Shown piece by piece: positions 48,611 to 64,000 of a DNA stretch of 64,000 nt. The notes beneath the pieces are model-generated. The model was not told where the DNA came from. It did no database searches and saw only the letters and a list, made by a program, of their open reading frames with translations. Source of the DNA: an uncultured bacterium (GTDB lineage Bacteria > Patescibacteriota > Minisyncoccia > Moranbacterales > UBA2206); the NCBI GenBank assembly GCA_903937035.1, contig CAIZXS010000005.1, positions 62,746 through 126,745 on the forward strand, given 5' to 3'. The position numbers were made by a program, and so were the translations under genes. Each line of letters starts with the position of its first letter. The stretch's first letter is position 1.

Positions 48611-48647
48611 GTAGATTTCAGATGCAGGGGGTCGGTCTAATATATCT

Positions 48648-49622: not shown

Positions 49623-49639
49623 ATAAAAAAACCTATTCA

Positions 49640-50344
49640 ATGAAGTATTATATTGCCGTTTTCTTTTTAGTGTTATTTGCTTTTGGCGCTCCCTGTTTTT
49701 CATTGGCTGGAATGAGCAGTCAAAATTTTTCCATCCAAGCTGATGCGATTGATGTTGGAGGTACGCGTTCTTCATCTGGGGGAGTTTCTTTGAATGATTC
49801 GCTCGATGAGCTGGCAACGGGAGAATCAAGGAGTCTTTCTTTTATGGCGGATATCGGTTTTTGGCCAATGGTGGGCAATGATGAGGTTATCTCTTTCACC
49901 GTGACAGACGCGATAGCTAGCTTGGGAACACTTAGTCATTCGGCAGTGAGATATGACACAGCTACTTTCCGCGCTGCAACAACAGCCAAGGGCGGTTATT
50001 CTATCCAGTTTTTTGGGGTACCATTAACTTCTGGGGGTAATTTGATTAGTGCGCTGAGCACACCAACGCCTTCTGCGACTGACACGGAACAGTTTGGGTT
50101 TAACTTAGTGGCCAATAATTCCCCAGCGGTGGGCGTTGACCCTGTGGGTGGATCAGGTCAAGCTGCAGTTGGCTATAATACGCCAGATAGCTTCAAGTTT
50201 GTCTCTGGTGAAACAATTGCTCAAGCAGCTTTGCCCTCTAACTTTACCAACTACACAATGTCAATCATCAGTAACATTACAGGAATAACTGACGCGGGAA
50301 ATTATGCCACAAACCTAACCGTTGTTGTGACAGGAAGGTATTAG
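49640..50344 (+). CDS. Secreted beta-rich surface subunit with N-module MSSQNFSIQAD.. (type 2 domain)
   Basis: 234 aa. Signal peptide. The N-module is shared with 52762..53514. C-terminal strand GNYATNLTVVVTGRY. Confidence 0.45.
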   Translation: MKYYIAVFFLVLFAFGAPCFSLAGMSSQNFSIQADAIDVGGTRSSSGGVSLNDSLDELATGESRSLSFMADIGFWPMVGNDEVISFTVTDAIASLGTLSHSAVRYDTATFRAATTAKGGYSIQFFGVPLTSGGNLISALSTPTPSATDTEQFGFNLVANNSPAVGVDPVGGSGQAAVGYNTPDSFKFVSGETIAQAALPSNFTNYTMSIISNITGITDAGNYATNLTVVVTGRY

Positions 50345-50436
50345 TTGATTTTGAAAAAAATAGCTTTACTCTTTTATTATTTTTGGTATAATAAAATAGA
50401 TGGAGAAAATATAAATAATATATTAGTAAAAACAAA

Positions 50437-51522
50437 ATGCAACAAAAAAAAGGATTCATTGTTGGCTTGGGGGTTATGGTGCTTATTACGCTTGGAGTGT
50501 TTATTCTGAAAGCTCAAGCCGCATCACTTACAACAGCAAGAGTTTATCTTAATCGAAATGCAGAAAATCTCACCACAGGCGTGGCACACGAAATCCAATT
50601 TACCCCAGCGACAGCTGTCTCTGGTGGGGCGGGAGTGAATAAAGTAATTTTGGTTTTTCCAGATGCTGATGATGGTAAGTGGTGTGCCACTGCGGGAGCA
50701 CTTGTTGTCACGACTACAGGACTAAAAGATACAGCTACTGCGCTTCCTGGCACTCCGACAGCTGCTTGCGTAAAAGGAGTGGGCGCTGCCAGCTACGACA
50801 CTATCACAATCAGCGCCGTTGATGATTTATCCGCTGCAACACTTTATGGTGTAAAACTGACAGATACTGGAGTGGGAAAACTCGGTACGCCGGCTAATAC
50901 AACATCAGGCATCATCACGATGAAAACCAATAACAATACGATTGACATTGATAGTACTAATTTTGTTATTGACATTCTTGCTAGCGATCAAATTTCTATC
51001 TCAGGTGTGGTTGACCCAACTTTGACTTTTTCTATTTCAGATAGCTCAATTGGTTTTGGAACAATTACTTCAGCTGCTGTGAGATATGTCACAGCAGATT
51101 TGCTGGGTAGCGCGACTGAAGCGACCAACGGGTTGCCATCGACAGTAACTGTTTCAACTAATGGTACTGGTGGTGTTGTAGTAGAAATCAAGGATACTAA
51201 TGCTAATTCAGCTTCTGGTCTCTATAGCAATGCTGGATCAGGAAAGACGATCGCTTCTGCTGCTAGTACTGCTGTTACCTTAGGGAATGAAGGTTTCGGA
51301 GTATATGGAAAAAATTCCAGCAACATTACGCTCAGCGAAGCGTTTGACAATGACAGCACCGCTGATCTGGCAATTAGCACAACTTTTCAAACTATTGCTT
51401 CAACAGCTGGTCCTGTTAGTTCCGGCTCATTTGATATCTCAGCCAAGGCTGGCGTGTCCGGTTCGACTCCTGCTGGTAGCTATGCCGATACGCTGACAGT
51501 TGTTGCAACAGGAAAATTCTAA
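50437..51522 (+). CDS. Secreted/anchored beta-rich surface subunit (type 2-like domain, larger)
   Basis: 361 aa. N-terminal TM/signal. Region TFSISDSSIGFGTITSAAVRYVTADL parallels ISFTVTDAIASLGTLSHSAVRYDTATF of the preceding gene. C-terminal GSYADTLTVVATGKF. Confidence 0.45.
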   Translation: MQQKKGFIVGLGVMVLITLGVFILKAQAASLTTARVYLNRNAENLTTGVAHEIQFTPATAVSGGAGVNKVILVFPDADDGKWCATAGALVVTTTGLKDTATALPGTPTAACVKGVGAASYDTITISAVDDLSAATLYGVKLTDTGVGKLGTPANTTSGIITMKTNNNTIDIDSTNFVIDILASDQISISGVVDPTLTFSISDSSIGFGTITSAAVRYVTADLLGSATEATNGLPSTVTVSTNGTGGVVVEIKDTNANSASGLYSNAGSGKTIASAASTAVTLGNEGFGVYGKNSSNITLSEAFDNDSTADLAISTTFQTIASTAGPVSSGSFDISAKAGVSGSTPAGSYADTLTVVATGKF

Positions 51523-51545
51523 ATTAATCCTTACTCTTAAATCAA

Positions 51546-52535
51546 ATGACTGCGAAAAATAAATTTCTTGCTTTTCTTAGAATCGGTGCATTTCTTTACT
51601 TTATTTTTCTGGGAAAAGGAGCATTTGCTCTCACAATTTCTCCTCCAGTGAGGGAGATGACAGGGGACCCAGGAACAAAAATCAGTGGGATTATAAAGCT
51701 TTACAATGAAACCAATAAGGACCTTTCCGTTACTCCTTCGCAGTCAGACTTTGGCGCCAAGGAAACTGGTGACGGCGAGCCAGAATTTTTTGAGTTGAGC
51801 GGAGAAAAATCAAAAGATTTAGCCAGTTGGATTAAGGTTCCCGCTGGTCCTTTTGCAGTTAGATCGCTTGATTGGCAAAATATTATTTTTGAAATTGATA
51901 TCCCAAAAGATGCTGAGCCCGGAGGTCACTATGCTGCAGTTTTCTTCAGTCCGCAGCAATCAGAGAAAGACAATAATGGATCAGTTAGTGTTGACTATAG
52001 AACTGGGACATTGATTCTTCTCACGGTTTCGGGAAAAATGAATGAAAGTGGAAATTTGAAAAGTTTCTCTCTGAAAGATGGCAAAAAATTCTATGATCAC
52101 ATTCCGGTTAATTTTGAATTGAATGTTGAAAACAAGGGCAATGTTCATTTTAAACCAGCGGGAAATATCATTGTTAAAAGTATGTTTGGCGGAAATATCG
52201 CTGAGCTGCCAGTCTTGAAGGTTGATTCTGGTGGAAATGTTTTGCCCAGAAGCAGCCGTCGATTTGAGATTGTTTGGGGTGATTCGGATGAAAAGAAAAT
52301 GCCTAAAACTTTTTGGGAAAAGGCTAGATATGAATGGGCTAATTTTTATGTCGGAAGATATAGTGCGCTTGCGAGTGTGACGCTTCCTGGAAGCGGTCAG
52401 GTGACTTCCAATGTTTCATTCTGGGTTTTTCCTTGGCAGTTGCTTATTGTGCTGGCCATTGGACTGGTTGTGTTATTGTTTGCGTTTAGAACGTATAACC
52501 GTTGGATTATCAAAAAAGCCAGAGAGAAAAAATAA
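51546..52535 (+). CDS. DUF916/DUF3324-like cell-surface protein with C-terminal TM anchor, paralog 2
   Basis: 329 aa. EPGGHYAAVFFSP, FELNVENKGNVHFKPAGNIIVKS, C-terminal TM LLIVLAIGLVVLLFAF plus basic tail. Collinear with 48648..49622. Confidence 0.45.
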   Translation: MTAKNKFLAFLRIGAFLYFIFLGKGAFALTISPPVREMTGDPGTKISGIIKLYNETNKDLSVTPSQSDFGAKETGDGEPEFFELSGEKSKDLASWIKVPAGPFAVRSLDWQNIIFEIDIPKDAEPGGHYAAVFFSPQQSEKDNNGSVSVDYRTGTLILLTVSGKMNESGNLKSFSLKDGKKFYDHIPVNFELNVENKGNVHFKPAGNIIVKSMFGGNIAELPVLKVDSGGNVLPRSSRRFEIVWGDSDEKKMPKTFWEKARYEWANFYVGRYSALASVTLPGSGQVTSNVSFWVFPWQLLIVLAIGLVVLLFAFRTYNRWIIKKAREKK

Positions 52536-52581
52536 AAAAGTATTAAGGATTTCTATTTATATAAAAAATAACCCCCCCTAT

Positions 52582-52720
52582 TGTCATTCTGAGCGTAGCG
52601 CAGCGAAGTCGAAGAATCTGCTATGAGTTATTCTAATCCTTGCTATATTATAGAAAGCTTATGGTAGTGGATGGCAGATCCTTCGACTGCGTCCGAGTAC
52701 GGACTTCGCTCAGGATGACA
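52582..52720. repeat. Repeat family A, copy 3
   Basis: tgtcattctgagcgtagcgcagcgaagtcgaagaatctg ... gcagatccttcgactgcgtccgagtacggacttcgctcaggatgaca. Preceded by a C7 homopolymer. Confidence 0.7.
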
Positions 52721-52761
52721 TTTTTATTTAAATGCGCAAGTCCTTTTTTCAAAAGTTCGCT

Positions 52762-53514
52762 ATGAAAATTTATTTTGCTCTATTTATTCTTTTCTTTGGT
52801 CTTGGGACTGCCTCGGTTTTTGCTGCAATGAGCAGTCCAAATTTTTCTATTCAAAGTGATGATGTTTCCGTGGCCGGTTCTCGTTCTGAATCGTCCAATT
52901 TTCGTGCTGAGGATACTTTGGGCGAGTTAGCTACCGGAGATTCATCTAGCGCTTCCTATCGCTTGCGATCGGGCTATCAAAGTATGCAAGAGGTGTATCT
53001 TGCACTAAGCGCTCCATCGGATGTGACGATGACCCCAACTATTCCTGGTGTGAGTGGTGGCTCTGGCAATGGTTCTGTTTTTTGGACTGTGACAACAGAT
53101 AATCTAGCAGGCTATTCTTTTTATGTTAGAGCAGGAGCAGCCCCAGCTCTCACTAAATTAGGTAACCCTGGCGTATTTTTTGATGACTATACTCCTGGCG
53201 CAGCTCCTGATTATGCCTGGCAAGTTGATTCGACAAAAGCCGAATTTGGCTTCACCCCGGAAGGGTCTGATATTGTGCAAAAATTTCGTGATAATGGATC
53301 ATCTTGCAACACAGGAACATTTGATACGCCAGATGCTTGTTGGTATAATTTTGTTGCATCTAACCCGGGCGAGCTGATTGCTCACTCAGCCGGTTCCAAT
53401 CATCCAACTGGCATTGCCACCACCGTCAAGGTGGAGGCTCAATCGAATTCTTCTCATTTGCAAGAGGCTGGGACCTATCAAGTAACAATCACCGTGACAG
53501 CATTGGCAAATTAA
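52762..53514 (+). CDS. Secreted mosaic surface subunit: N-module of the 49640 type + C-terminal domain of the 47966 type
   Basis: Start taken at MKIYFALFILFF (signal peptide). The ORF track starts 10 codons earlier at 52732. AAMSSPNFSIQSDD...GELATGDSSSAS parallels 49640. LALSAPSDVTMTP...GTYQVTITVTALAN parallels 47966. Confidence 0.45.
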   Translation: MKIYFALFILFFGLGTASVFAAMSSPNFSIQSDDVSVAGSRSESSNFRAEDTLGELATGDSSSASYRLRSGYQSMQEVYLALSAPSDVTMTPTIPGVSGGSGNGSVFWTVTTDNLAGYSFYVRAGAAPALTKLGNPGVFFDDYTPGAAPDYAWQVDSTKAEFGFTPEGSDIVQKFRDNGSSCNTGTFDTPDACWYNFVASNPGELIAHSAGSNHPTGIATTVKVEAQSNSSHLQEAGTYQVTITVTALAN

Positions 53515-53538
53515 AAAAATATTAAATTAAAATTTGAT

Positions 53539-54777
53539 ATGGATAAATTGAAATTATTCATTAGGCAAAAATCAGCAATCAGAAAATTAATGAGCTTAAC
53601 CTTTCTTTTAACCTTTCTTTGGATGGATTTTTTTGTTTTCGGTGTGATAATTGGAAAACCCCTAACCTTTGCTCAGGCAGAGAGCACGATTCGCGTTGGG
53701 CTAAGAGTTCTTCCTTCGAATCCTATTGAAAATACTGAAAAAATAATTCCAAATAATGAGAAGCATGAATCATTGTCAGACTTAAGATCTTCCAGTTTTC
53801 GCTTGATTTCTTCTGTTGAAAATACAGATAAGAGTCTTCAGCTAAATGAAACCTCTCAGCCTGGTGAAAAATCTGATCAAGTCATGGAGTCAGATGGAGT
53901 TGTTTTGGGGAAATCAATTGTGGATTTTCAGGGCAAGGCGATTTATCCAAATTCAAATGTGCTCCTAGAGATTAGATCTTCTCCATTTTTAACTTCAGTA
54001 ATCAGTGATAGTCAGGGAAATTGGACTTGGACTAACTGGTGTCATCCTCTTGAAGATGGAGAGCATTGGCTGGAAGCGAGCAATGTTTCCCCCTTTGACT
54101 TATCAGGAAAAAGAGATATTTTCATACAAAGGTTTAAATTTTTTGTCAAAAACCAAGTAGATAGTAAACTAACTGACCAATTAGCACTTGAGAAATTAAT
54201 ATCCACAGCGGGTACTGATGGTGTAGCCGATATATTGGGCAAGGGGAATGTGAAAGATTTGTATTTGTTTAATATTGCCCTCCTAAACAAGAAAGAATAT
54301 AATCCACAAGATGAAATGTTTTTGCAATTGCTATTTAATCCTCTTGGACAAATTTCCGATAAAGAAGCCTTGATAAAATATGAAATTTATGGCGTAGACG
54401 AAAATGGCAGTATCGACCAGCCTCTTTTGGAGCTAAATGACAAAATAGAGCTTGCCGAAAATAAGGCTTTTCTAAAAAAAATTAAGTTACAAAAAGAGAT
54501 CACTGGTAACGAGTATTTTATTAAGGTAATGGCCTATATTGGTGGCAATGAATACGTTCAATCAGCTAAATTTGGAATAGCTCCCAAGATATTGCTTCAG
54601 GTGGGTGAAGTGAAGATAGATCAAGATAAATTTAGTAAGATCATTGTCTGGAATTCTTTGGTGGTTGTGGGTTTTGCAATCATAGTCCTTCTGTTGATGA
54701 TTTTTGAGTATCACCAGATGTCTCAATCTGATCTGATTAACGCTAAGATGTTAAAAAAACGACACTATTTTTCTTAG
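53539..54777 (+). CDS. Membrane-anchored protein with Ig-like domain, hypothetical
   Basis: 412 aa. N-terminal TM/signal, KSIVDFQGKAIYPNSNVLLEIRSSPFLTSVISDSQGNWTW (bacterial Ig-like pattern), C-terminal TM IIVWNSLVVVGFAIIVLLLMIF. Confidence 0.4.
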   Translation: MDKLKLFIRQKSAIRKLMSLTFLLTFLWMDFFVFGVIIGKPLTFAQAESTIRVGLRVLPSNPIENTEKIIPNNEKHESLSDLRSSSFRLISSVENTDKSLQLNETSQPGEKSDQVMESDGVVLGKSIVDFQGKAIYPNSNVLLEIRSSPFLTSVISDSQGNWTWTNWCHPLEDGEHWLEASNVSPFDLSGKRDIFIQRFKFFVKNQVDSKLTDQLALEKLISTAGTDGVADILGKGNVKDLYLFNIALLNKKEYNPQDEMFLQLLFNPLGQISDKEALIKYEIYGVDENGSIDQPLLELNDKIELAENKAFLKKIKLQKEITGNEYFIKVMAYIGGNEYVQSAKFGIAPKILLQVGEVKIDQDKFSKIIVWNSLVVVGFAIIVLLLMIFEYHQMSQSDLINAKMLKKRHYFS

Positions 54778-55110: not shown

Positions 55111-55209
55111 AAGTGATTAGTGTGGTAGTTGAGATGGGCTACCAGGCTTAACTTTTGGCCTAAATCTGCTATAATTAAAGAGTTATAAGTGTCTTCAAGG
55201 GGGATGCGA

Positions 55210-55240
55210 AAGACGGGTGAGCCCGTCTTTTTGTTTGTTC
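55210..55240 (+). terminator. Rho-independent terminator ~20 nt upstream of the giant gene start
   Basis: aagacgggtgagcccgtctt hairpin followed by tttgtttgtt. Confidence 0.55.
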
Positions 55241-55261
55241 CTTGAAAATTTGCACTAAAAT

Positions 55262-58200
55262 ATGCCGCCGCTAAAACAAAAAAATCAAAACACAATATCT
55301 TTTCAAAAGACCTCCTTCGTGTTGATTTTCTTGGCAGTTGTTTTCCTCGTTGGCGTGAAAAATTCTCAGGCGGTAATTTCTGAGAAGATTAATTATCAAG
55401 GAAAATTGACTGATTCGAGTAACGTAACTGTAGCTGACGGAGCATATGACATTGTTTTCAATCTTTACACGACTGCTGGTGGTGGTTCTCCAATTTGGAC
55501 AGAGTCTTGGACAAACTCAGCCCTTTTCACAAATTCTGGAACAACTTTCACAAATAATGGTTGCGCGGCAGGAGTGGATCGCATGGCCTATACTGGAGAC
55601 ACTAACGAGGGAACACTTTCAGCGGGACAATATCTTTGGAATACAACCAAAAAGGAATCAGCCGTAATTGAGTCTGTGAGCACTTCCGGTTCTGGCGGGT
55701 ATATTTGTTTTTATGATCCCTATTCAACTTGGGCAAGTAGTGATGCTATTTCTAACCGCATCTATGTCCGCAGTGGAATTTTTTCCACTATGCTTGGAAG
55801 CGTGCAAAGTCTCAGTGCAATTGATTTCAATCAAACGCTCTATCTAGGAGTGACAATCGGAGGTGATCCAGAAATGCAACCAAGAAAAGTGATTGGTTCT
55901 GCTCCATCAGCTTTTACAGCCAAAACATTGAATAATAATGGCACTGCAACAATAGCCACCAATGCCGGGGCGACAATTAGCATTGGCAATACAACTGGAG
56001 CAGCTACTGTGCTTTCCGGCGGAGCATCTTCTTGGGCTAACACGAGTGGAAACCTGACTGTTTCTACGGTGACTTCCGGAACGCTCGCTGTGACATCAGC
56101 TGGAGCACTTAATTTGTCTGCCGCTGCCGCTTCGACTGCAACGCTCGCCAATGTTGCTGATGCATTTAATTTTGATAGCAACACTCTTTCTGTTGATGCT
56201 CTGAATAATCGAATCGGAATTGGGACGGCTGCTCCAACCGCATTTTTGGACATAGCAGCATCCACAACTGGCGCTGCTAGCTTGCGTTTGCAAACAGGAG
56301 TTGCTCCGACAACTCCGAATATCGGTGATATGTGGTTTAATGGGACTAATCTATATTTCAGAAAAGATGGTACAACATCGCAAGACTTGTTGGCTTCAAG
56401 TGGTAGCGGACCTTGGACTGACGGCACTGGCGTTACATATATAACTGACACAGCAGAGGACTTGGCAATCGGCGCAGCAACATTGGTTGCGCCTTTTTCC
56501 GTTGATGTTTCCCTGAATACTGCTCGCATCGGTACTGGAGCGACTAATAATGGAATTCTAAACATGTATGCCTCAGATGGTGATACTGGTTCGCTTGCTT
56601 ATACCACCGACGATGCTTGGACTTTCACGGGTGGTAATGTGGGAATTGGCACTACTCAACCATGGAGTGCTCTTCATGTCACTAGTAGTGTATTGTGGGG
56701 TTCAAATGTTTATCTCGAAGCCACCAATGCTGGTGCGGATTTTCCAGTTTGGACATTTAAGAAATCCAGAGCAGGCGCTTCGGTGAATGCTTGGGATTCA
56801 TTGGGGGAGATGAAATTTGCTGGAGTCAACAGCACGGGAAGTTCAGATTCTGATTTTGGAACTATTATTGGTATTGCGGAAGATCCAACTTCGGGTTCAG
56901 AAGATGGAAATTTTATGTTTTCTGTTGTCAGAGGTGGTGCAATGATTGAACAAGCAAGATTTAGTGGGCCGGAGGGAGTTAATTTTAATTACCAGAACTC
57001 TCCCAATGTTGATTTTACGGTTTCAGGAGACACAATCAGTCAACTCATATTCGCTGATGCCAGCACAGACACAATTGGGATTGGTGTTGCTGCGCCAAAA
57101 GCTTTTCTGTCACTAGCCGGTGCTACGGCTGGAAAATCTTCCCTGAATATTGCTACTGGCACTGCTCCAACCGGCGGTAATCTCTATGATGGTGATATGT
57201 GGTATGAAACTGGGCATCTCTATTTCCGCGATACGACAACGAAAGACCTCTTAGCTGGAGGAGGAATGGCAATTGGAGGAACAATCTCAAATAGTCCCAA
57301 TGATACGTCAATACTATTCGTGAACGGTTCAGTTCTCGCCCAAGATACCAATTTTACTTGGAACACAACTAATGATGAATTGGGAATTGGAGTGGCTCCG
57401 ACATATAGAGTTGATGTTGCAACGGCGGTGGCAAGTGATCGTGGAGTTAATATTTCCAATACTGCTGCAACAGGAACAAACTATGGTATCTTTTCTTCCG
57501 TCACCGGCGCAGCGACTGCTAATTATGGTGGAAATTTTGCATCCAGTGGCGCTGTTACCAATTATGGCGTGAATATTGCTGGCATGACAGGGTCGGCTAC
57601 AGCTTTGAATAACTATGGCGTATATGTGGGAACCATTACGAGCACCAGCTCAACCAATGCGGTTAATTATGGAATATATGTCAATGGAATAACTGGAGTT
57701 ACAGCCGAGGATAATGCTACAAACGTTGACTTATACCTAGGAAATATCACTGGCTCAACCACAACTTCAAGTAATATTGGACTCAAGATGGGAACCATCA
57801 CAAGCACCTCTGGAACCGGATCGAACTACGGAATTCAATTAGGTGCCATTTCTGGCGCAACAAATAATTCCTATGGCATTTCACTTAATACCTTGACCGG
57901 AGGCGTTCTGACCAACACTCAAATTGCGACTGGCCAGATCACTGTAACAGGCGCAGTGACTGGAAGCTATGCTCTTAATCTGGGTGGGTTGACGGGAACA
58001 GCTAACGCAGCGACTAACGCTGGAATCAATCTTGGTGCAATAAATTCCGCCGGAACAACGAGCACAAACTATGGAATTCGCTTGAGCACAATGACCGGAG
58101 GAACAACCGCAAATTATCAAATTGCGACTGGCGCGCTCACAAACACTGGTACGACCAACATTCAGCTCGATTTAGGCGGACTTTCTGGTTCTGTTGCATC

Positions 58201-61200
58201 TTCGAATAATTATGGAATTAGACTTGGCGCAATCAGCTCAGCCGGAACCACTTCGAATAATTATGGAATTAGTCTTGGAACATTGACTGGTGGCACGACT
58301 TCCAACACGCAAATTGCCACAGGCGCAATCACAATTACCTCTGTTTCTAACTACGGATTAAATATCGGCGGACTTTCTGGCTCTGTTGCTTCTTCTAATA
58401 ATTATGGCATCAATGTTGGCGCAATCAGTTCTGCTGGAGCAACTTCCAATAATTATGGAATGAATATCACATCAATCACTGGTGGTGTAACGGCTAACTA
58501 TGGTTTAAATGTCGGCGCAATCACAACCACTGGTGCGACCAATTCTTATGGTTTGAATGTGGCTGCAATGACTGGCACGGGAGCATCTAGTTATGGATTA
58601 AATGTGATGGCGGCGACTGCCACGGGAACAAACGTGTTTGGTATGCAAATTAATGGAGCGACTGGTGGCTCAGCTAATAGTTATGGCTTAAACGTGACGG
58701 TGCCGATCAATGCTACTGGGCACAAGGCAGGCATTGAAATTGGAGCAGCTTCCACAGCAAGTGGAAATTGGGCGCTTTATTCTGGTGATACAAACGGATC
58801 ATATCTAGCGGGAAATTTAGGCCTTGGAACAGCAGTGACCACAACTTCATTTCTCAGTCTGGGTGCCCATACCACTGCAAAATCAAGTCTAAATATTCCA
58901 TCTTCTGGTGGCGCTGTTCTTTCTGCTCCTGTTATTGGGGATATGTGGTTTAATGGAACCAGTCTATATTTTAGGAAAGATGGTTCAACTTCGAGCGACC
59001 TTCTTGCTGCTGGGGCTGGAATGTCGATTGGTGGAAGTATTAGTAGCTCAACTTCTGGTTCTATTCTCTATGCTAATAGTTCCAACCAAATGGCTCAGGA
59101 TAATGCTAACTTTTTTTGGGATGCAACGAACAAGCGCCTAGGAATTGGAACAACTGCTCCATCACAAGCGTTGACAGTTAATGGAAGCATCAGGTTGGCT
59201 GCTGGCGTGACAAATAGCTTAGTCTTTCAAGATGGAACGACAATGACGACGGCTGCTGCCACCTCCACTGGCTATACGAGTACAACTGATTTGAACTTTG
59301 CGGCGGACAGTGATACTAATGGTTCTGGTACGATGTTTTTTGCTACTAATGGCCTGGAAAGAATACGTGTCACAAATGCTGGACTAGTTGGTGTCGGCAC
59401 AGCATCAGGAACCGCGCAATTAGCAGTCAATACAACTGGTACAAACAATCTTTTGCAATTGCAAAAAGCTGGACTGGATAAGTTTGTAGTGGATAATAAG
59501 GGTGGCGTGACAGTCAACGGAACATCAGCAAATAACGTCAAGACAACTACTGGAACAACCAATGTGACAGATTTTTCCTTTACTGGCTCAACCTTTACTA
59601 ATGTCACTTCGCAAAATGATGAAGTTGATATTGATGCCGGATCGGTGGTAACAACTTTCTCATCAGCCGCGGCTAATACTGCAGTCAATGCTGGAGCGGG
59701 ATCACATAGTATCGTGCGTGATGATGGCAGAGTAATTGTTGTTCATGGCGGTGGCGCAGCGACTGGATCATCGTGGGACGGATCATCTGCGACGATGACT
59801 TCAGTCACCGTTGCTTCGGCTGCTTCAGTTGGAGCAGGCGCAATCTCTCTGAAGCGTCCTAACGGAAGGTATCTTCTGGTGCACGGTAATGGTTCGGCTG
59901 GACTTTCTTCTGTTTATGACCCTTGGAATATTACAGCAGCCGCTGCTGGCCCAGCAGTTTGTGGAGGTGGGGCAACAACAACGGGAACTAATGCTTTTAT
60001 GCGACCAGATGGAAAATATGTCATTATGTGCGGAGGTTTGACAGCTTGGGGTGTCTATGATCCTTCGGCTGCTGTCGCAGCTGGATACACTGCAGGCACA
60101 GTAGTCGCTTCAGCTTTTGGCGCTGGCGCTTTTGCGATCCAAAGAGATGATGGAACGTTTTTAGTTTTTCGCGGAGGCAGCACAACCACACATTGGATTT
60201 ATAATCCTTTTGCTGGTGCGACTGGAACCTGGACAATAAACCCAATCACAACTAATATGCCAACAATTTCTACTGGAGCTTTTGCTATCCGTAGGAATGA
60301 TGGAAAATATTTGATTGTGGGAGGAGCGATTAATACTTCAACTATCTATAACCCAACGACAACGACTTCTAATTCTGGTGCGGGAGCTTTTGAGCTCATT
60401 AATGGTGGTGTAGCAGCAGCCGGTTTCGGGCCAATCACCACTGCTCTTGCAGACGCTGCTCAAGTAGTGCGTCGACAAGATGGGAAATATCTGATGGTGC
60501 ATGGTGGCGCTTCAACGCTAACTGATATCATTGATCCATCTGTCACGACCAATCAAATGTTTTTAGCTGGAACAGCCCTTAATAATGCCATGGGTGCTGG
60601 CGGACATTTTGTTCCGAGGCCAGACGGAAAATATGCCATCATTCGCGGAGGCGCTGCAACCCCAGTCGATACTTATGATATGGGCTTTGTGATGGGAGGG
60701 AATGGATCAGGATCGCAACTTTCGAGTTATGAAACGGAATGTATGACAGCGACCTCACTTAATCAATCTTCCACACTCAACTGGACAGCTAATATGGAAG
60801 GAACGCTTATTTTTCAGGTAAAAACAGGAACAGGTTCTTGTTCTGGAGCTTATAAGAACATTCTAAATAGTGGGGATTTAATTCGTCCTGTGGCAGGAGA
60901 TAATCGCGTTCAAGTTAAGGTTTTTTTCAAGCGCCCATTTTTTATCGGTTACGACCAGGAGTGGTCTTTGTGGCGTGGTCTTAGCCAGCCACGTTATCGT
61001 GCGAAAGTGGCCGATCCAACACTATATGACATTAAGGTTGATAATTCCTCTCAGCTACATCGCTCCCTGTTTGACTTTGGTATTGGAACAAATAATGCCA
61101 CTACCGATCCATCTGGACCAGTATCTTCGAATTTGAATGTGACTATGGATGGTAAATTACAGTTAGCAGCTGGTGTCGGAATGCAAAATCTTGCCCCAAC

Positions 61201-64000
61201 TACTGTTCCCTCTCCTACTCTTGGACTTGCTTATGGTGGCGCCTATGCAACACAGTCAGCTCTCACGACCGGTGCCTTAGAGGGCACTATCGTGATGAGA
61301 CGTCCAGATGGAACCTTTTTGGTTATTGCGGGTAATGCAGCGACAGCTAATGCGCAAGTATATGATCAAAATACAGGTGTATTTACCGCTAATGCTAATG
61401 GGGTGTATGGTGCTACTTGTAGTGGTAATTGTGTACCAACAACATACGCCAAAAGAGGAGCTCTTGCTTTCAAGCGTCCTGATGGAAAATATTTAGTGGT
61501 ACTTGGTGGTGCTTCTACTACGACAAACATATATGATCCAGTCGCAAGCACATTCACTGCTGGGCCAGCAGTTACTGCTAATGTTGCTCGTGGATCGCAA
61601 GTAATTCCACTACCTAATGGTCGGGTGCTTATTATTCATGGAAACACAACTGCAACAACATCTATTTATGACCCAATTCAAAATATAATGCTTATTGGTC
61701 CATCGTCGCCAGTGAATGTTGGTCCAGGATCATTAGTGATTCCTAATGTTAATGGTACTTGGCTTCTTATTCCTGGTCTTCCGGATACTGGTACGGACAC
61801 AGCAATTACCTGTGGAACGCCCGTTACAACATCAACCATCTTTGATTCATATTCTATGCTATTTTCTCCAACAGCTTCAGCGCCAACGATTGTTACGGGA
61901 ACTGGTCCGGGAGCGCTTGCTTTACAGCGTTCTGATGGGTTATGGGTTATCACAAAAGGTGGTGCCGTAGTGACGACATGCGCTACCACGGTACTTACTA
62001 CTCATATATACAATCCAACCACTGGAAAGATTGTTGCTGGTCCAAGTGTAATAACCCAAGCTCCTGGGCAAGGTAGTCATGTAATACAGCGCCCCGATGG
62101 AAATAGAATAATTGTAAATGGTGGAGGAACAGCGACATCGCAGGTATATATAGAAAAAGATATTGCAGCAACACATGCTTTTGGTGAACAAATTGGTCTT
62201 TTCGTAGCCGGCGGACCAGCTCCTGCTGCCATTGGATCAGGATCAGTTTCTTTTCAGAGGGATGATGGAAAGCAAGTAACGATTTCTGGCGGAACAACCA
62301 CTACTGCCATATCTGTTGGTACTGTCAATACGGGCGTGCAAATGCTTGATTTGGGCTGGGCGGCGACAGGGGCATATCGGACAGAACAAATCAATGTTTC
62401 TGATCTCAGCACCGACTCAACACTTAACTGGAAAGCGACACCAAATATGAACAACATTTCAGCTGAAGTGCGCACAGCCACAAGTCAGCTTGGACTTCAA
62501 TTGGCCACTTCTCGCGATATCACAACATCCGGTGGTCTCATTAATCCTGGCGGATCAGAAACTTGGATTCAGATTCAATTTAATTTCAAGCGAATATTCC
62601 CAAATAATCCTGGAATTTGGAGTGATGTGTGGTGGAATGGTGGCTCGACAATGGCATTTAATTTGCGTACTATTACTAATCCGACTCTCAGTGAATTCAA
62701 GGTAAGTAAGGATGTCGATTTGGTTAACTTAAAATCAGACGGTTTGTCGATGTTTCGGGTTGGAACTAATGGTAGCATCTATACTTCTGCGACTGGAGTG
62801 ATTAATTCTGGTGGCGCCGACTTGGCTGAAAATTATACTTCAAATGATGCGTTGGAAAAAGGCGAAATTGTGGCGATTGATCCATCTGATAATCATAATG
62901 TTAAACGTTCTGCGTTGCCATATCAAAATGATCTTTTGGGAGTGGTTTCGACTGCTCCGGGTTTTGTGGCTGGCTCATATACCAAGGATTCTCATCCAAT
63001 TGCGCTGGTTGGACGCGTGCCGGTCAAGGTTTCTTCCGAAAATGGAATGATTCGCGAAGGTGATCGCATTACATCAGCTTCAATTCCTGGATTTGGTATG
63101 CGCGCGACATTCAGTGGGCGAGTAATTGGAACTGCGCTTGAATCAATGGATTCGGTTAATCTGGAAACTTGTCCAGCTGGTGGATATATCATGCCCAATG
63201 CAAAATGTGGTGAGATTATGGTTTTTGTTAATCTGGTGGATTATTCTGGAATGTCAGTGGACACATTGATGGCTGAGTCGAATGATGACACTGAGTCTGA
63301 AACAGAAACAGTTGATCAAAGTTCGCCTTTTGCTCAATTTGCAACGCAAGGAAAAATCCTAAATTTCTTGAAGAAAATGCGAGCAACTCAAACTAATTAC
63401 CGAGGTAGCGATATTTTGACCAGCAACGTGAGTGCAATTGGTCAAGTCGTTAGCCCGCTTATTGTGACAGACACTTTGATTGCCAAAAATATCAAAGCGG
63501 AAAATATTGAAGGGTTGCAATTTATCCAAACCGGAATCACTGACGCACAAAATGGCGTCTCAACCAACGCCACGGAAGTCAAAAACTTGGGACAACAATT
63601 GATTGACCTGCAAACTATGATGAAAGCGTTGACTGACAAATCCAATGGTGTAGATGCTGACGCGGTCAAAGAGATGGCAGTTAGCTATGGCTTGGTGGAG
63701 AGTGGACCGGCAGAATTCAAAGGACAGGCAATATTTAAGGCGATTGCAGAGTTTGTTGACAAGGTAATTTTCAGAAACAATGTTGAATTTGCTGGTCAAG
63801 TGATCTTTAATGAGGATTCAGCCGGATATGCCATTGTGAATAAAGGTGAGAATAGCGTGAAAGTAGAATTTGCCAAGGAATATGCCAATGTGCCAATCAT
63901 CAATGCCAGCCTTTCCGTGCAAGACATTAAAGATGAGGAATTGCGCAGTGCGACAGAAGATTTGATTTTGGCAACAGATGTTAAATATTTAATCACGAAT
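55262..64000 (+). CDS. Giant secreted/surface protein (>2900 aa, C-terminus off window) with NYGI-type beta-helix-like repeats, recurrent IGDMWFNGTxLYFRKDG modules and >=14 Kelch-like repeats
   Basis: Manual translation from ATG 55262 (in-frame TAA 6 nt upstream) stays open to the window end. N-terminal TM/signal ISFQKTSFVLIFLAVVFLVGVKNSQA. Repeats such as GAISSAGTTSNNYGIRLG. Kelch-like units of the form R-x-DGKYL-V-x-GG ... IYDP. Conserved (N/K)xLGIGTxAP..L.V motifs. Confidence 0.8.
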   Translation, partial: MPPLKQKNQNTISFQKTSFVLIFLAVVFLVGVKNSQAVISEKINYQGKLTDSSNVTVADGAYDIVFNLYTTAGGGSPIWTESWTNSALFTNSGTTFTNNGCAAGVDRMAYTGDTNEGTLSAGQYLWNTTKKESAVIESVSTSGSGGYICFYDPYSTWASSDAISNRIYVRSGIFSTMLGSVQSLSAIDFNQTLYLGVTIGGDPEMQPRKVIGSAPSAFTAKTLNNNGTATIATNAGATISIGNTTGAATVLSGGASSWANTSGNLTVSTVTSGTLAVTSAGALNLSAAAASTATLANVADAFNFDSNTLSVDALNNRIGIGTAAPTAFLDIAASTTGAASLRLQTGVAPTTPNIGDMWFNGTNLYFRKDGTTSQDLLASSGSGPWTDGTGVTYITDTAEDLAIGAATLVAPFSVDVSLNTARIGTGATNNGILNMYASDGDTGSLAYTTDDAWTFTGGNVGIGTTQPWSALHVTSSVLWGSNVYLEATNAGADFPVWTFKKSRAGASVNAWDSLGEMKFAGVNSTGSSDSDFGTIIGIAEDPTSGSEDGNFMFSVVRGGAMIEQARFSGPEGVNFNYQNSPNVDFTVSGDTISQLIFADASTDTIGIGVAAPKAFLSLAGATAGKSSLNIATGTAPTGGNLYDGDMWYETGHLYFRDTTTKDLLAGGGMAIGGTISNSPNDTSILFVNGSVLAQDTNFTWNTTNDELGIGVAPTYRVDVATAVASDRGVNISNTAATGTNYGIFSSVTGAATANYGGNFASSGAVTNYGVNIAGMTGSATALNNYGVYVGTITSTSSTNAVNYGIYVNGITGVTAEDNATNVDLYLGNITGSTTTSSNIGLKMGTITSTSGTGSNYGIQLGAISGATNNSYGISLNTLTGGVLTNTQIATGQITVTGAVTGSYALNLGGLTGTANAATNAGINLGAINSAGTTSTNYGIRLSTMTGGTTANYQIATGALTNTGTTNIQLDLGGLSGSVASSNNYGIRLGAISSAGTTSNNYGISLGTLTGGTTSNTQIATGAITITSVSNYGLNIGGLSGSVASSNNYGINVGAISSAGATSNNYGMNITSITGGVTANYGLNVGAITTTGATNSYGLNVAAMTGTGASSYGLNVMAATATGTNVFGMQINGATGGSANSYGLNVTVPINATGHKAGIEIGAASTASGNWALYSGDTNGSYLAGNLGLGTAVTTTSFLSLGAHTTAKSSLNIPSSGGAVLSAPVIGDMWFNGTSLYFRKDGSTSSDLLAAGAGMSIGGSISSSTSGSILYANSSNQMAQDNANFFWDATNKRLGIGTTAPSQALTVNGSIRLAAGVTNSLVFQDGTTMTTAAATSTGYTSTTDLNFAADSDTNGSGTMFFATNGLERIRVTNAGLVGVGTASGTAQLAVNTTGTNNLLQLQKAGLDKFVVDNKGGVTVNGTSANNVKTTTGTTNVTDFSFTGSTFTNVTSQNDEVDIDAGSVVTTFSSAAANTAVNAGAGSHSIVRDDGRVIVVHGGGAATGSSWDGSSATMTSVTVASAASVGAGAISLKRPNGRYLLVHGNGSAGLSSVYDPWNITAAAAGPAVCGGGATTTGTNAFMRPDGKYVIMCGGLTAWGVYDPSAAVAAGYTAGTVVASAFGAGAFAIQRDDGTFLVFRGGSTTTHWIYNPFAGATGTWTINPITTNMPTISTGAFAIRRNDGKYLIVGGAINTSTIYNPTTTTSNSGAGAFELINGGVAAAGFGPITTALADAAQVVRRQDGKYLMVHGGASTLTDIIDPSVTTNQMFLAGTALNNAMGAGGHFVPRPDGKYAIIRGGAATPVDTYDMGFVMGGNGSGSQLSSYETECMTATSLNQSSTLNWTANMEGTLIFQVKTGTGSCSGAYKNILNSGDLIRPVAGDNRVQVKVFFKRPFFIGYDQEWSLWRGLSQPRYRAKVADPTLYDIKVDNSSQLHRSLFDFGIGTNNATTDPSGPVSSNLNVTMDGKLQLAAGVGMQNLAPTTVPSPTLGLAYGGAYATQSALTTGALEGTIVMRRPDGTFLVIAGNAATANAQVYDQNTGVFTANANGVYGATCSGNCVPTTYAKRGALAFKRPDGKYLVVLGGASTTTNIYDPVASTFTAGPAVTANVARGSQVIPLPNGRVLIIHGNTTATTSIYDPIQNIMLIGPSSPVNVGPGSLVIPNVNGTWLLIPGLPDTGTDTAITCGTPVTTSTIFDSYSMLFSPTASAPTIVTGTGPGALALQRSDGLWVITKGGAVVTTCATTVLTTHIYNPTTGKIVAGPSVITQAPGQGSHVIQRPDGNRIIVNGGGTATSQVYIEKDIAATHAFGEQIGLFVAGGPAPAAIGSGSVSFQRDDGKQVTISGGTTTTAISVGTVNTGVQMLDLGWAATGAYRTEQINVSDLSTDSTLNWKATPNMNNISAEVRTATSQLGLQLATSRDITTSGGLINPGGSETWIQIQFNFKRIFPNNPGIWSDVWWNGGSTMAFNLRTITNPTLSEFKVSKDVDLVNLKSDGLSMFRVGTNGSIYTSATGVINSGGADLAENYTSNDALEKGEIVAIDPSDNHNVKRSALPYQNDLLGVVSTAPGFVAGSYTKDSHPIALVGRVPVKVSSENGMIREGDRITSASIPGFGMRATFSGRVIGTALESMDSVNLETCPAGGYIMPNAKCGEIMVFVNLVDYSGMSVDTLMAESNDDTESETETVDQSSPFAQFATQGKILNFLKKMRATQTNYRGSDILTSNVSAIGQVVSPLIVTDTLIAKNIKAENIEGLQFIQTGITDAQNGVSTNATEVKNLGQQLIDLQTMMKALTDKSNGVDADAVKEMAVSYGLVESGPAEFKGQAIFKAIAEFVDKVIFRNNVEFAGQVIFNEDSAGYAIVNKGENSVKVEFAKEYANVPIINASLSVQDIKDEELRSATEDLILATDVKYLITN

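What the first reader, a model, noticed from the sequence alone, without database searches (positions are those of the whole stretch)
55262..64000. Giant (>2900 aa) surface protein with NYGI repeats, recurring IGDMWFNGTxLYFRKDG modules and >=14 Kelch-like units, missed by the ORF track
A single open frame runs from ATG 55262 to the window edge with no stop. Features are an N-terminal TM/signal, more than 15 copies of an ~18-aa unit (GAISSAGTTSNNYGI(R/S/N)LG, beta-helix/beta-roll-like), and three copies of a ~30-aa module IGDMWFNGT(N/S)LYFRKDG(T/S)TSxDLLA, each followed by GIGTxAP..L.V.G motifs reminiscent of phage tail-fibre-type repeats. A long series of ~45-aa repeats of the form (V/F/L)-x-R-(x)-DGKYL(V/I)V-x-GG ... 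T-x-IYDP matches the Kelch beta-propeller consensus (two or more propellers). The C-terminal conserved block is ADLAENYTS...IALVGRVPVKVSSENGMIREGDRITSASIPGFGMRA. Such giant repeat proteins in small-genome bacteria are candidate host-attachment/adhesin structures. Its position at the end of the surface-subunit cluster suggests they form one functional system.
Basis: seen in the sequence. Interest (0 to 1): 0.7.

Follow-up and report, generated by a model that had tools for sequence, protein, structure and literature searches.

The report
Giant tail-fibre-like adhesin beside pilus operon
A real 3024-residue secreted protein of a small-genome (Patescibacteria) bacterium joins a phage-type self-cleaving folding module to two Kelch propellers and a lectin domain, and it always lies next to a newly described pilus operon, so it is a strong candidate host-attachment fibre.

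Summary
Frame +1 from ATG 55262 has no stop for 2913 codons; an independent contig shows the full protein is 3024 aa.

Anatomy:
- Sec-type signal peptide.
- β-barrel N-terminal domain that defines a very large family (>31,000 clusters), mainly in Patescibacteria, with no curated model.
- Tail-fibre-like GIGT/GDMW modules.
- 19 NYG repeats.
- Two copies of a unit made of a seven-bladed Kelch propeller plus a β-sandwich. The unit resembles galactose oxidase but lacks the copper ligands.
- The "ADLAENY" block, which is a distant relative of the phage phi29 gp12 autochaperone (Peptidase_G2). Its conserved D-x-A-E sits exactly at the known cleavage boundary.
- A coiled/β region, an H-type lectin domain cut by the window end, and a Pro/Glu/Val-rich tail.

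No C-terminal membrane anchor or LPXTG motif is present.

In 8 of 8 homologous loci, homologues of the upstream genes precede the giant gene. Those genes resemble the recently described CPR "Pam" pilus operon, whose authors noted a co-localised, uncharacterised "tail fibre-like protein".

Best reading: a secreted, probably trimeric, glycan-binding fibre that works with that pilus system. Trimerisation, cleavage and host binding are inferred, not shown.

The parts
55208..55231 (+). Terminator-like hairpin (10-bp stem, then a T-run) between the upstream cluster and the giant gene
   Evidence: This is a consensus match only. It may lower read-through into the giant gene.
55262..55372 (+). Start codon and Sec-type signal peptide (residues 1-37, K-rich n-region, 15-residue h-region, S-Q-A|V)
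   Evidence: It is the only hydrophobic 19-mer of the whole protein. Cleavage is inferred from the (-3,-1) rule.
55373..55957 (+). Conserved N-terminal beta-barrel domain (residues 38-232), the hallmark of a very large family found mainly in Patescibacteria
55958..57436 (+). Fibre block A (residues 233-725): four GIG[TV] motifs and two GDMW[FY] modules
   Evidence: Weak PHROG matches: phrog_1417 and phrog_5906, both of unknown function.
57437..58741 (+). NYG repeat array (residues 726-1160): 19 strict anchors, period mostly 13-18 aa, with a 64-aa super-repeat present three times
   Evidence: The structure was not predicted.
58742..59653 (+). Fibre block B (residues 1161-1464): third GDMWF module and three G[ILV]GT motifs
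   Evidence: PHROG 'tail fiber protein' families phrog_9942 and phrog_18345 match at E about 5e-5.
59654..60697 (+). Kelch-type beta-propeller 1, seven blades (residues 1465-1812)
60698..61096 (+). Beta-sandwich 1 following propeller 1 (residues 1813-1945)
   Evidence: AF2 model. The layout matches galactose/glyoxal oxidase, i.e. propeller plus C-terminal sandwich.
61247..62347 (+). Kelch-type beta-propeller 2, seven blades (residues 1996-2362)
   Evidence: Internal duplicate of the propeller 1 + sandwich 1 unit: 28% identity, E = 4e-34. Sub-threshold Kelch_6 hit. Blades listed.
62348..62707 (+). Beta-sandwich 2 (residues 2363-2482)
   Evidence: Aligns with sandwich 1 inside the duplicated unit.
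62708..63286 (+). Peptidase_G2-type intramolecular chaperone module (residues 2483-2675). D-L-A-E lies at 62819-62830, and the predicted self-cleavage site is Ala2519|Asp2520
   Evidence: Profile A1 against PDB: phi29 gp12 at E = 1.3e-4, with 3GQH starting at DFAEYF. PF11962 matches 13 of 32 family members, best E = 6.8e-9. Jumbo-phage virion proteins match at 35% identity, E = 3e-10. D-x-A-E is kept in 77 of 85 homologues.
63287..63856 (+). Acidic linker plus a helical/beta-repeat region (residues 2676-2865)
   Evidence: Read from the sequence. Conserved in 48 of 120 homologues. Structure was not tested.
63857..64000 (+). Start of an H-type lectin domain (residues 2866-2931). It is cut by the window end and is followed off-window by a Pro/Glu/Val-rich tail to residue 3024
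   Evidence: PF09458 scores 29.3 bits against a gathering score of 24 on the complete sequence from P0001. Tail composition.
47966..54777 (+). Upstream surface cluster, a probable divergent pam (CPR pilus) operon. It has pilin-like secreted proteins u1, u3, u4 and u6, two signal + C-terminal-TM proteins u2 and u5 (PamC/D-like, WxLIP-like), and u7 with a C-terminal TM

Best explanation
The gene encodes a 3024-aa Sec-secreted surface fibre of a Patescibacteria (Moranbacteria-like) cell. It is built like a phage tail fibre but belongs to the cell.

Proposed mechanism:
1. The signal peptide directs export.
2. The C-terminal Peptidase_G2-type intramolecular chaperone, helped by the following coiled region and H-type lectin domain, nucleates a homotrimer. 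It templates folding of the long GIGT/GDMW and NYG fibre.
3. The chaperone then probably self-cleaves at Ala2519|Asp2520, at the conserved D-x-A-E.
4. Two non-catalytic Kelch propeller + beta-sandwich units per chain, plus the lectin domain, act as glycan or ligand binders for the host-cell surface.
5. The family-defining N-terminal beta-barrel domain is the constant end. It couples the fibre to the surface apparatus encoded directly upstream, a divergent Pam-type donor-strand-exchange pilus operon.

Shown: the ORF, the domain identities, the internal duplication, the conserved motif and the conserved gene neighbourhood.

Inferred: trimerisation, cleavage, glycan binding, coupling to the pilus and the role in host attachment.
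For: The ORF is real and complete elsewhere.

There is one N-terminal hydrophobic segment and no C-terminal anchor in any of 120 homologues.

G2 chaperone homology: PDB profile E = 1.3e-4 to phi29 gp12. The cleaved fragment 3GQH starts exactly at the aligned D of DFAE, and the 772-aa 3SUC chain reads DFAQ at that position. Pfam PF11962 matches 13 of 32 members. The module sits at the C-terminus of a virion protein encoded beside tail-fibre genes in phage PA5oct. D-x-A-E is conserved in 77 of 85 homologues.

Kelch/galactose-oxidase-like unit.

No invariant or nearly invariant His or Cys occurs in the unit alignment, and the only conserved Tyr is Y135, apparently the YDP blade Tyr.

The H_lectin domain passes its gathering score.

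The architecture is modular. The ends are constant (N-terminal domain in 50 of 120 homologues, chaperone in 96 of 120) and the middle is variable (propellers in 8 of 120).

Upstream-cluster homologues precede the giant gene on the same strand in 8 of 8 loci, including members with a different middle or an S74 chaperone.

u6 matches NCBIfam PamT and Pam pilin C models, below their cut-offs. The Pam preprint reports a tail fibre-like protein consistently co-localised with the pam operon.
Against: On this protein alone the G2 match is below Pfam's threshold (14.6 bits against 25). The PDB alignment covers only the first ~70 residues of the module.

Unlike phage chaperones, the module is not terminal. 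About 350 residues follow it here, and the median is 259 across homologues. Cleavage would therefore detach the lectin domain.

From my recollection of the phi29 gp12 literature, release of the gp12 chaperone needs ATP, which is absent outside the cell.

No oligomer prediction could be run.

The N-terminal domain shows no detectable relation to the upstream proteins (hhalign probability 0.1%). No interaction was tested.

A terminator-like hairpin separates the cluster from the gene.

The NCBIfam Pam matches of u6 are far below their curated cut-offs.

The propeller model is of moderate quality (pLDDT 70.8). Other seven-bladed propellers score only slightly worse than galactose oxidase.
Confidence: 0.55

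Rival explanations
1. The protein is a monomeric beads-on-a-string adhesin. The G2-like block is a degenerate structural domain that neither trimerises nor cleaves, and the protein acts independently of the neighbouring pilus genes.
For: The G2 match is weak on this sequence. The module is internal, with a long extension after it. The propeller and N-terminal domains fold confidently as single chains. A terminator-like hairpin lies upstream.
Against: D-x-A-E is conserved in 77 of 85 modules, and other residues are invariant (G85, R86, G101, D102). This argues for retained chemistry. From established knowledge, all three C-terminal modules belong to classes known to form trimers. Synteny holds in 8 of 8 loci.
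Confidence: 0.2
2. The protein is a secreted enzyme rather than a binder. It would be either a copper-radical oxidase of the galactose/glyoxal oxidase type or a tailspike-like depolymerase that attacks the host envelope.
For: The top structural matches are galactose oxidase, glyoxal oxidase and other galactose-oxidase-type copper oxidases, including the propeller + sandwich layout. Distant homologues carry Glyoxal_oxid_N. Phage proteins with this chaperone are often enzymes (established knowledge).
Against: No invariant or nearly invariant His or Cys occurs among 11 aligned units. In the alignment to the oxidase 6RYW, the G-Y-Q position is G-T-N here; I recall that position as the redox Tyr, and this rests on memory. 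No hydrolase, lyase or oxidase family matched any segment.
Confidence: 0.08
3. The protein is a structural cell-envelope component, for example an S-layer-like or cell-cell spacing fibre, and is not directed at a host cell.
For: No direct evidence of host binding exists. The N-terminal-domain family is very large and varies in length. Cell-wall genes lie nearby: FemAB upstream and a beta-lactamase-like gene downstream.
Against: The variable ligand-binding middle between constant ends is the pattern of receptor-binding proteins. Lectin and Kelch modules suggest glycan recognition. The Pam pili next door are described as important for host interaction.
Confidence: 0.1
4. The gene is a prophage or phage tail-fibre gene, or an assembly artefact.
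For: The C-terminal module is shared with phage virion proteins. PHROG tail-fibre hits occur. An ORF6N/Rha-type regulator lies 13 kb upstream.
Against: The flanks are housekeeping and surface genes: PolA, RuvA, RuvB, FemAB, Dxr and IspG. No phage structural genes are present. The protein has a Sec signal peptide. The N-terminal domain has no phage match by tblastn, IMG/VR patterns or BFVD folds. The same chromosomal neighbourhood recurs in 8 loci. The frame is stop-free with P about 1e-75, and an independent contig is identical. DNA repeats are diverged.
Confidence: 0.03

Closest known systems
Phage phi29 gp12 pre-neck appendage (tailspike) C-terminal autochaperone, Peptidase_G2 / PF11962
   Same: The module is homologous at the profile level. 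The D-x-A-E motif aligns to the first residues of the released gp12 chaperone. The invariant G-R-V-P-V-K-V and G-D segments resemble the family consensus.
   Different: Here the module lies in a 3024-aa Sec-secreted cellular protein. About 350 residues follow it, comprising a coil, an H-lectin domain and a tail. It scores below Pfam's cut-off on this sequence. Cleavage and any ATP requirement are untested.
Cellular 'tail fiber domain-containing' proteins with a Peptidase_S74 chaperone (endosialidase type) and eukaryotic MyRF
   Same: The design principle is shared: a phage intramolecular chaperone reused in a cellular protein to trimerise and then cut. Sister members of this same family carry S74 instead of G2, for example P0025.
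   Different: This protein uses the G2 type. MyRF cleavage frees a transcription factor, whereas here the two products would both be extracellular.
Galactose oxidase / glyoxal oxidase (AA5 copper-radical oxidases)
   Same: Both have a seven-bladed Kelch propeller followed by a beta-sandwich. These enzymes are the best fold matches and the only PDB sequence-profile matches.
   Different: The unit is duplicated in tandem inside a fibre. No conserved His, Cys or Tyr ligand set is present. The unit is probably a binding module.
H-type lectins (Helix pomatia agglutinin family, PF09458)
   Same: The C-terminal domain passes the curated threshold. From established knowledge, the family forms trimers and binds GalNAc/GlcNAc-type sugars.
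   Different: The domain lies downstream of a predicted self-cleavage site. Its sugar-binding residues were not examined.
CPR Pam pilus operon with its co-localised 'tail fibre-like protein' (Troman et al., bioRxiv 10.64898/2026.03.03.709456)
   Same: Upstream there are Sec-signal pilin-like proteins and two chaperone-like proteins with a C-terminal TM helix. u6 matches PamT and Pam pilin models weakly. A tail-fibre-like gene lies adjacent.
   Different: The lineage is Moranbacteria-like rather than Saccharimonadia or Microgenomatia. Matches are far below the curated cut-offs. The preprint mentions the tail-fibre-like protein in a single sentence and does not describe it. Its identity with this family is inferred.
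Gram-positive WxL clusters (small WxL, large WxL host-binding protein, WxLIP = DUF916/DUF3324 + TM; PMC10599100)
   Same: The gene-cluster logic is the same: small secreted proteins, a membrane-anchored Ig-like protein and a large host-binding protein. Homologues of u5 pass the WxLIP_PGBD threshold.
   Different: No WxL domain was detected in the small proteins or the giant protein. The constant domain of the giant protein is N-terminal and unrelated to the small proteins.

Membership tests
Kelch-repeat beta-propeller | Tandem ~44-56-aa units with a GG doublet and conserved hydrophobic/aromatic positions | tested here: met
   There are 14 units spaced 44-61 aa with the consensus R-x-DG-h-h-h-x-GG...(Y/I)(D/N)P.
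Kelch-repeat beta-propeller | Match to a curated Kelch HMM at its gathering score | tested here: not met
   The only hit is Kelch_6 at 20.7 bits against a cut-off of 25.3, on one blade of propeller 2. Propeller 1 has none.
Kelch-repeat beta-propeller | Profile-level homology to recognised Kelch proteins | tested here: met
   Profile A2 hits only 'Kelch domain-containing protein' 6RYW (E = 7e-8) and 'Kelch protein' 9TSN (E = 3e-6) among PDB sequences. Relatives at E = 5e-17 and 2e-16 carry Kelch_1/2/3/4/6 and Glyoxal_oxid_N.
Kelch-repeat beta-propeller | Closed six- or seven-bladed propeller fold | tested here: met
   The AF2 model (pLDDT 70.8, pTM 0.66) gives Foldseek matches to seven-bladed propellers at E down to 2e-9.
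Galactose/glyoxal oxidase (copper-radical oxidase) | Seven-bladed propeller followed by a C-terminal beta-sandwich domain | tested here: met
   The top 19 PDB matches are galactose-oxidase-type copper oxidases (galactose oxidase, glyoxal oxidase, GlxA, Colletotrichum copper oxidase). Alignments span about 540 columns at TMq about 0.48, with high rmsd.
Galactose/glyoxal oxidase (copper-radical oxidase) | Conserved copper ligands (2 Tyr, 2 His) and the Cys of the Tyr-Cys cofactor | tested here: not met
   Invariant or nearly invariant columns of A2 include no His or Cys. The only conserved Tyr is Y135, apparently the YDP blade Tyr.
Peptidase_G2 intramolecular chaperone (phi29 gp12 type) | D-x-A-E motif at the cleavage boundary | tested here: met
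   DLAE at residues 2520-2523 aligns to DFAE, which is residue 1 of the released fragment 3GQH. The motif is kept in 77 of 85 homologues.
Peptidase_G2 intramolecular chaperone (phi29 gp12 type) | Match to PF11962 at its gathering score | tested here: inconclusive
   This protein scores 14.6 bits against 25. However, 13 of 32 aligned family members match, best E = 6.8e-9. The family profile matches gp12 at E = 1.3e-4.
Peptidase_G2 intramolecular chaperone (phi29 gp12 type) | Position at the extreme C-terminus of a trimeric fibre or spike | tested here: not met
   About 350 residues follow the module here, and the median across homologues is 259. In phage PA5oct gp359 the module is terminal.
Peptidase_G2 intramolecular chaperone (phi29 gp12 type) | Trimer-dependent autoproteolysis | not testable with these tools
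   This needs expression and mass spectrometry, or multimer modelling.
H-type lectin (PF09458) | Match at the curated gathering score | tested here: met
   Scores are 25.7-29.3 bits against 24, at residues 2866-2931 of the complete protein.
CPR Pam pilus system (as an accessory 'tail fibre-like protein') | Adjacent operon with Pam pilins and membrane-anchored PamC/D-type chaperones | tested here: inconclusive
   u6 matches PamT at E = 5.9e-10 (39 bits against a cut-off of 240) and Pam_pilin_C at 22.3 bits against 55. u2 and u5 have a signal peptide and a C-terminal TM helix.
CPR Pam pilus system (as an accessory 'tail fibre-like protein') | Conserved co-localisation of the fibre gene with the operon | tested here: met
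   Found in 8 of 8 loci. This is consistent with the preprint's network analysis.
WxL surface cluster | WxL domain in the small and large proteins, plus a WxLIP protein | tested here: not met
   WxLIP_PGBD passes its threshold only in the L002 and L006 homologues. No WxL domain was found in any small protein or in the giant protein.
Trimeric autotransporter adhesin | C-terminal membrane-anchor beta-barrel and YadA-type head or stalk repeats | tested here: not met
   No Pfam match was found for any segment. A monoderm-type cell envelope is my inference. Only one homologue (P0097) carries a source-assigned head-domain label.

The most novel reading that the evidence does not exclude
The giant protein is the distal adhesin, or cargo, of the CPR Pam pilus. 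In this reading a phage-derived trimeric tail fibre is mounted on a donor-strand-exchange pilus through its N-terminal domain, which is found mainly in Patescibacteria. Its G2 chaperone folds and cuts it outside the cell without ATP. The result would be a hybrid pilus-plus-tail-fibre host-capture organelle with swappable receptor-binding cassettes, widespread in Patescibacteria.
Probability: 0.2. Interest if true: 0.8.

Novelty: new variant of a known kind. Interest (0 to 1): 0.6.

Why it matters
How ultrasmall Patescibacteria recognise and hold their host cells is largely unknown beyond type IV pili and the newly described Pam pili.

This gene gives a concrete anatomy for the "tail fibre-like protein" that travels with the pam operon. 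It has constant ends: an N-terminal domain with more than 31,000 sequence clusters and no curated model, and a phage-type self-cleaving chaperone. Between them lies an exchangeable ligand-binding middle, here two Kelch units, with an H-type lectin domain after the chaperone.

This is the architecture of a receptor-binding protein. It suggests that host range in these bacteria may be set by cassette swapping, as in phages.

It also yields directly testable predictions:
- cleavage at Ala2519|Asp2520;
- a trimeric state;
- glycan binding;
- docking of the N-terminal domain to pilus components.

Tried and rejected
Scans that gave nothing:
- Whole-protein Pfam, NCBIfam and PDB sequence scans. Only segment-wise and profile searches were informative.
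- NCBIfam on all segments of the giant protein.
- TRF found no tandem arrays at the DNA level.

Hypotheses tested and rejected:
- The N-terminal domain is the same domain as the small upstream proteins, as the WxL analogy would predict. hhalign probability is 0.1%.
- Copper-oxidase activity, rejected on ligand conservation.
- Prophage origin, rejected on context.

The single-sequence scan of genome contigs returned two relatives, one unnamed MAG and one Uhrbacteria. The viral scan returned none.

Literature:
- The 'giant genes' preprint (Omnitrophota) does not cover this family.
- The Saccharibacteria Tn-seq paper lists other adhesin types.
- The phi29 gp12 structure paper was not available in the library. 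Details of gp12 cleavage beyond what the PDB sequences show rest on my own knowledge.
Full report
**1. Observation**

Translating 55262-64000 on the + strand gives 2913 codons without a stop. The other five frames of the same stretch contain 90-224 stops. At this base composition the chance of a stop-free frame of this length is about 1e-75. ATG 55262 is the first possible start, because an in-frame stop ends at 55258. The mechanical ORF list omits the gene only because it does not list ORFs that run off the window.

A 100%-identical protein, P0001, lies on an independent JGI metagenome contig (L001). That contig differs from the window by 1 mismatch in 8735 nt. It completes the protein: 3024 aa in total, of which the window lacks the last 111. 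The contig starts 4 nt after the ATG, which explains why its gene call begins at residue 20.

At the DNA level the repeats are diverged. The best pair is 80% identical over 124 nt, and Tandem Repeats Finder reports nothing. Assembly collapse is therefore unlikely.

**2. Anatomy of the protein** (residue numbers)

- **Residues 1-37.** The only hydrophobic segment of the protein, with an S-Q-A|V site. This is a Sec-type signal peptide, inferred from the (-3,-1) rule.
- **Residues 38-232.** A conserved N-terminal domain.
- **Residues 233-725 and 1161-1464.** Fibre blocks with eight G[ILV]G[TV] motifs and three GDMW[FY] modules. The modules lie at 355, 644 (a variant) and 1226.
- **Residues 726-1160.** The NYG array has 19 strict anchors, spaced mostly 13-18 aa. 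By eye about 27 units are present if degenerate ones are counted. There is also a 64-aa super-repeat present three times.
- **Residues 1465-1945 and 1996-2482.** Two copies of a unit made of seven R-x-DG...GG...YDP blades followed by a ~130-aa non-repeat block. The two units align to each other at 28% identity, E = 4e-34.
- **Residues 2483-2675.** The "ADLAENY" module.
- **Residues 2676-2865.** An acidic linker and a helical/beta-repeat region.
- **Residues 2866-2931.** A domain that the window cuts in half.
- **Residues 2946-3024.** A Val/Glu/Ala/Pro-rich tail.
- No LPXTG motif or C-terminal hydrophobic segment is present. Among 120 homologues, none has a C-terminal hydrophobic anchor.

**3. 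What the modules are**

*Whole protein.* No Pfam, NCBIfam or PDB sequence match reaches significance on the whole protein.

*Blades.* On segments, one blade gives Kelch_6 at 20.7 bits, below the 25.3 cut-off. A profile of the propeller + sandwich unit (A2, 11 sequences) hits only Kelch proteins among all PDB sequences. These are the Colletotrichum copper oxidase 6RYW (E = 7e-8), which Foldseek ranks among the galactose-oxidase-type oxidases, and a "Kelch protein" 9TSN (E = 3e-6).

In the large protein collection, the profile's distant relatives (E = 5e-17, 2e-16 and 5e-6) carry curated Kelch_1/2/3/4/6 and Glyoxal_oxid_N domains.

The AF2 model has mean pLDDT 70.8 and pTM 0.66. It matches galactose oxidase, glyoxal oxidase and related copper oxidases best (E about 2e-9, TMq about 0.48). 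Those enzymes share the layout of a seven-bladed propeller followed by a beta-sandwich. PLL lectins, Vgb lyase and NHL propellers follow closely.

The alignment has no invariant or nearly invariant His or Cys, and the only conserved Tyr is Y135, apparently the YDP blade Tyr. The copper-radical site is therefore not conserved. I read the units as binding modules, not oxidases.

*ADLAE module.* A profile of the module (A1, 32 sequences) matches the phage phi29 pre-neck appendage protein gp12 (6QZ9, E = 1.3e-4). The released C-terminal fragment 3GQH begins exactly at the aligned D of DFAEYF. The 772-aa 3SUC chain reads DFAQYF at that position and spans the junction.

Pfam Peptidase_G2 ("IMC autoproteolytic cleavage domain") matches 13 of 32 family members (best E = 6.8e-9). 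This protein itself scores only 14.6 bits.

By tblastn the module matches the extreme C-terminus of a mass-spectrometry-confirmed virion protein. That protein is encoded next to tail-fibre genes in jumbo phage PA5oct and its relatives (35% identity, E = 3e-10).

D-x-A-E is kept in 77 of 85 homologous modules. Further residues are invariant: G85, R86, G101 and D102 of the alignment.

*Last domain.* It is an H-type lectin (PF09458, 29.3 bits against a gathering score of 24) when the complete sequence is scanned.

*GIGT blocks.* They match PHROG families weakly, including two annotated as tail fibre protein.

*NYG array.* It has no match. Its fold was not predicted, so the beta-helix/beta-roll idea stays open.

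**4. N-terminal domain and the family**

An exhaustive HMMER search finds 31,436 50%-identity clusters at E <= 1e-3 and 14,829 at E <= 1e-10. The domain nearly always starts 15-90 residues from the N-terminus, in proteins of up to more than 6000 aa.

Named members are Patescibacteria: Moranbacteria closest at 67%, then Levy-, Vogel-, Nomura-, Kaiser-, Pacebacteria and Parcubacteria. One Omnitrophica protein also appears.

Among the 120 best homologues of the whole protein, the N-terminal domain occurs in 50 and the chaperone module in 96. The double propeller occurs in only 8. Some relatives carry a Peptidase_S74 chaperone instead of the G2 type. The family therefore has constant ends and an exchangeable middle, the pattern typical of receptor-binding proteins.

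**5. Genomic context**

The window is chromosomal. It carries PolA, RuvA, RuvB, FemAB, Dxr, IspG, Fpg and NAPRTase.

Directly upstream (47966-54777, same strand) lie seven secreted or membrane proteins without Pfam matches. Two of them, u2 and u5, have a signal peptide and a C-terminal TM helix. Four are smaller paralogous secreted proteins (u1, u3, u4, u6). A terminator-like hairpin at 55208-55231 separates the cluster from the giant gene.

In all 8 independent loci of family members that I fetched (L002/3, L004, L005, L006, L007, L010, L011, L012), homologues of these genes precede the giant gene on the same strand. This includes members with other middle modules or an S74 chaperone. Pfam recognises the u5 homologues in L002 and L006 as WxLIP_PGBD (43 bits against 27.3).

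NCBIfam matches u6 to "CPR-type pilus protein PamT" (E = 5.9e-10) and to the "Pam pilus system pilin subunit" C-domain. Both matches are far below the curated cut-offs.

The corresponding preprint (bioRxiv 10.64898/2026.03.03.709456) describes Pam pili of Ca. Mycosynbacter amalyticus. They are built from Ig-like pilins assembled by donor-strand exchange. The operon also encodes membrane-anchored PapD-like chaperones with a C-terminal TM helix, a tip pilin PamT and a membrane-anchored terminator PamR.

The preprint reports that "a tail fibre-like protein" consistently co-localises with the pam operon across CPR lineages. It says nothing further about that protein.

I conclude that the upstream cluster is probably a divergent pam operon and that the giant gene is this co-localised fibre. 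The first point is not established at curated thresholds.

A beta-lactamase-2-like gene follows the giant gene immediately in L001, L002/3, L005 and L007, and after one intervening gene in L006.

**6. Mechanism (inference)**

Export occurs through Sec. Folding is nucleated from the C-terminus by the G2-type intramolecular chaperone. From established knowledge of gp12-type chaperones, coiled coils and H-type lectins, the chaperone, the following coiled region and the H-lectin domain all belong to classes that form trimers.

Self-cleavage at Ala2519|Asp2520 is likely, given the conserved motif.

The six propeller units and three lectin domains of a trimer would give multivalent glycan or ligand binding. 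The constant N-terminal domain would connect the fibre to the Pam-type apparatus.

Points against:
- The module is internal, so cleavage would detach the lectin domain.
- As I recall from the phi29 gp12 literature, release of the gp12 chaperone depends on ATP, which is absent outside the cell.
- No interaction or oligomer was tested.
- The N-terminal domain is unrelated to the small upstream proteins.

**7. Rivals considered**

These were a monomeric non-cleaving adhesin, a secreted oxidase or depolymerase, a structural envelope fibre, and a prophage gene or artefact. Evidence for and against each is given in the Rival explanations section.

**8. Novelty**

Every individual module class is known, and cellular proteins with phage chaperones are known. 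New here are:
- the G2-type chaperone in an internal position of a giant secreted Patescibacteria protein;
- the tandem galactose-oxidase-like but ligand-less Kelch units;
- the H-lectin after the cleavage site;
- the very large unmodelled N-terminal family;
- the strict linkage to a Pam-like operon.

The only prior mention I found is one sentence in the 2026 preprint. I rate it a new variant of a known kind, with moderate to high interest.

Noticed in passing
window 47966-54777 (+): Seven-gene surface cluster. u2 (48648-49622) and u5 (51546-52535) have a signal peptide plus a C-terminal TM helix and are WxLIP/PamC-D-like. u1, u6, u3 and u4 are paralogous secreted proteins that end in a G-x-Y-x-x-T-[IL]-T-V/A motif. 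u7 (53539-54777) has N- and C-terminal TM segments. This is probably a divergent CPR pam pilus operon in a lineage other than the Saccharimonadia and Microgenomatia where the preprint reports Pam pilins to be most prevalent.
   Followed up: partly
L001 9273-9656; L002 23276-24250; L005 12020-12976; L007 9828-10790: A Beta-lactamase2-family gene (PF13354) immediately follows the giant gene in several loci, at 52-72% identity to the L001 fragment. Its role is unexplained.
   Followed up: partly
window 55373-55957 (residues 38-232 of the giant protein): This N-terminal beta-barrel domain defines a family of 31,436 50%-identity clusters, mainly in Patescibacteria. No Pfam or NCBIfam model covers it. 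It would merit a domain definition of its own.
   Followed up: yes
window 13828-16848 (-): A 1006-aa protein with two T2SSE (PilB-type ATPase) stretches (749.8 bits) plus an MshEN domain. It appears to be a fused or duplicated type IV pilus assembly ATPase.
   Followed up: no
window 9586-11625 (-): A 679-aa protein with three Lamin Tail Domain stretches and a PKD domain. It is another likely surface protein.
   Followed up: no
window 41387-42088 (-) and 40470-41279 (-): An ORF6N/Rha-type phage regulatory protein lies next to a TrmB-family regulator. This is the only phage-flavoured gene seen near the locus, and no phage structural genes accompany it.
   Followed up: no
window 55208-55231 (+) and 54808-55110 (+): A strong terminator-like hairpin lies 30 nt before the giant gene's ATG. 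It follows a small hydrophobic 100-aa ORF. It might set a low giant-protein to pilin ratio.
   Followed up: no
L006 22374-24683: In one homologous locus a 769-aa Peptidase_S74 / K1-lyase_C protein sits directly after the giant gene. This is a second, smaller tail-fibre-like gene in the same neighbourhood.
   Followed up: no
window 2360-3319 (-), 5257-6663 (-): Two ATP-grasp (RimK / sugar-transfer-associated) proteins. One is fused to a putative zinc-protease domain.
   Followed up: no
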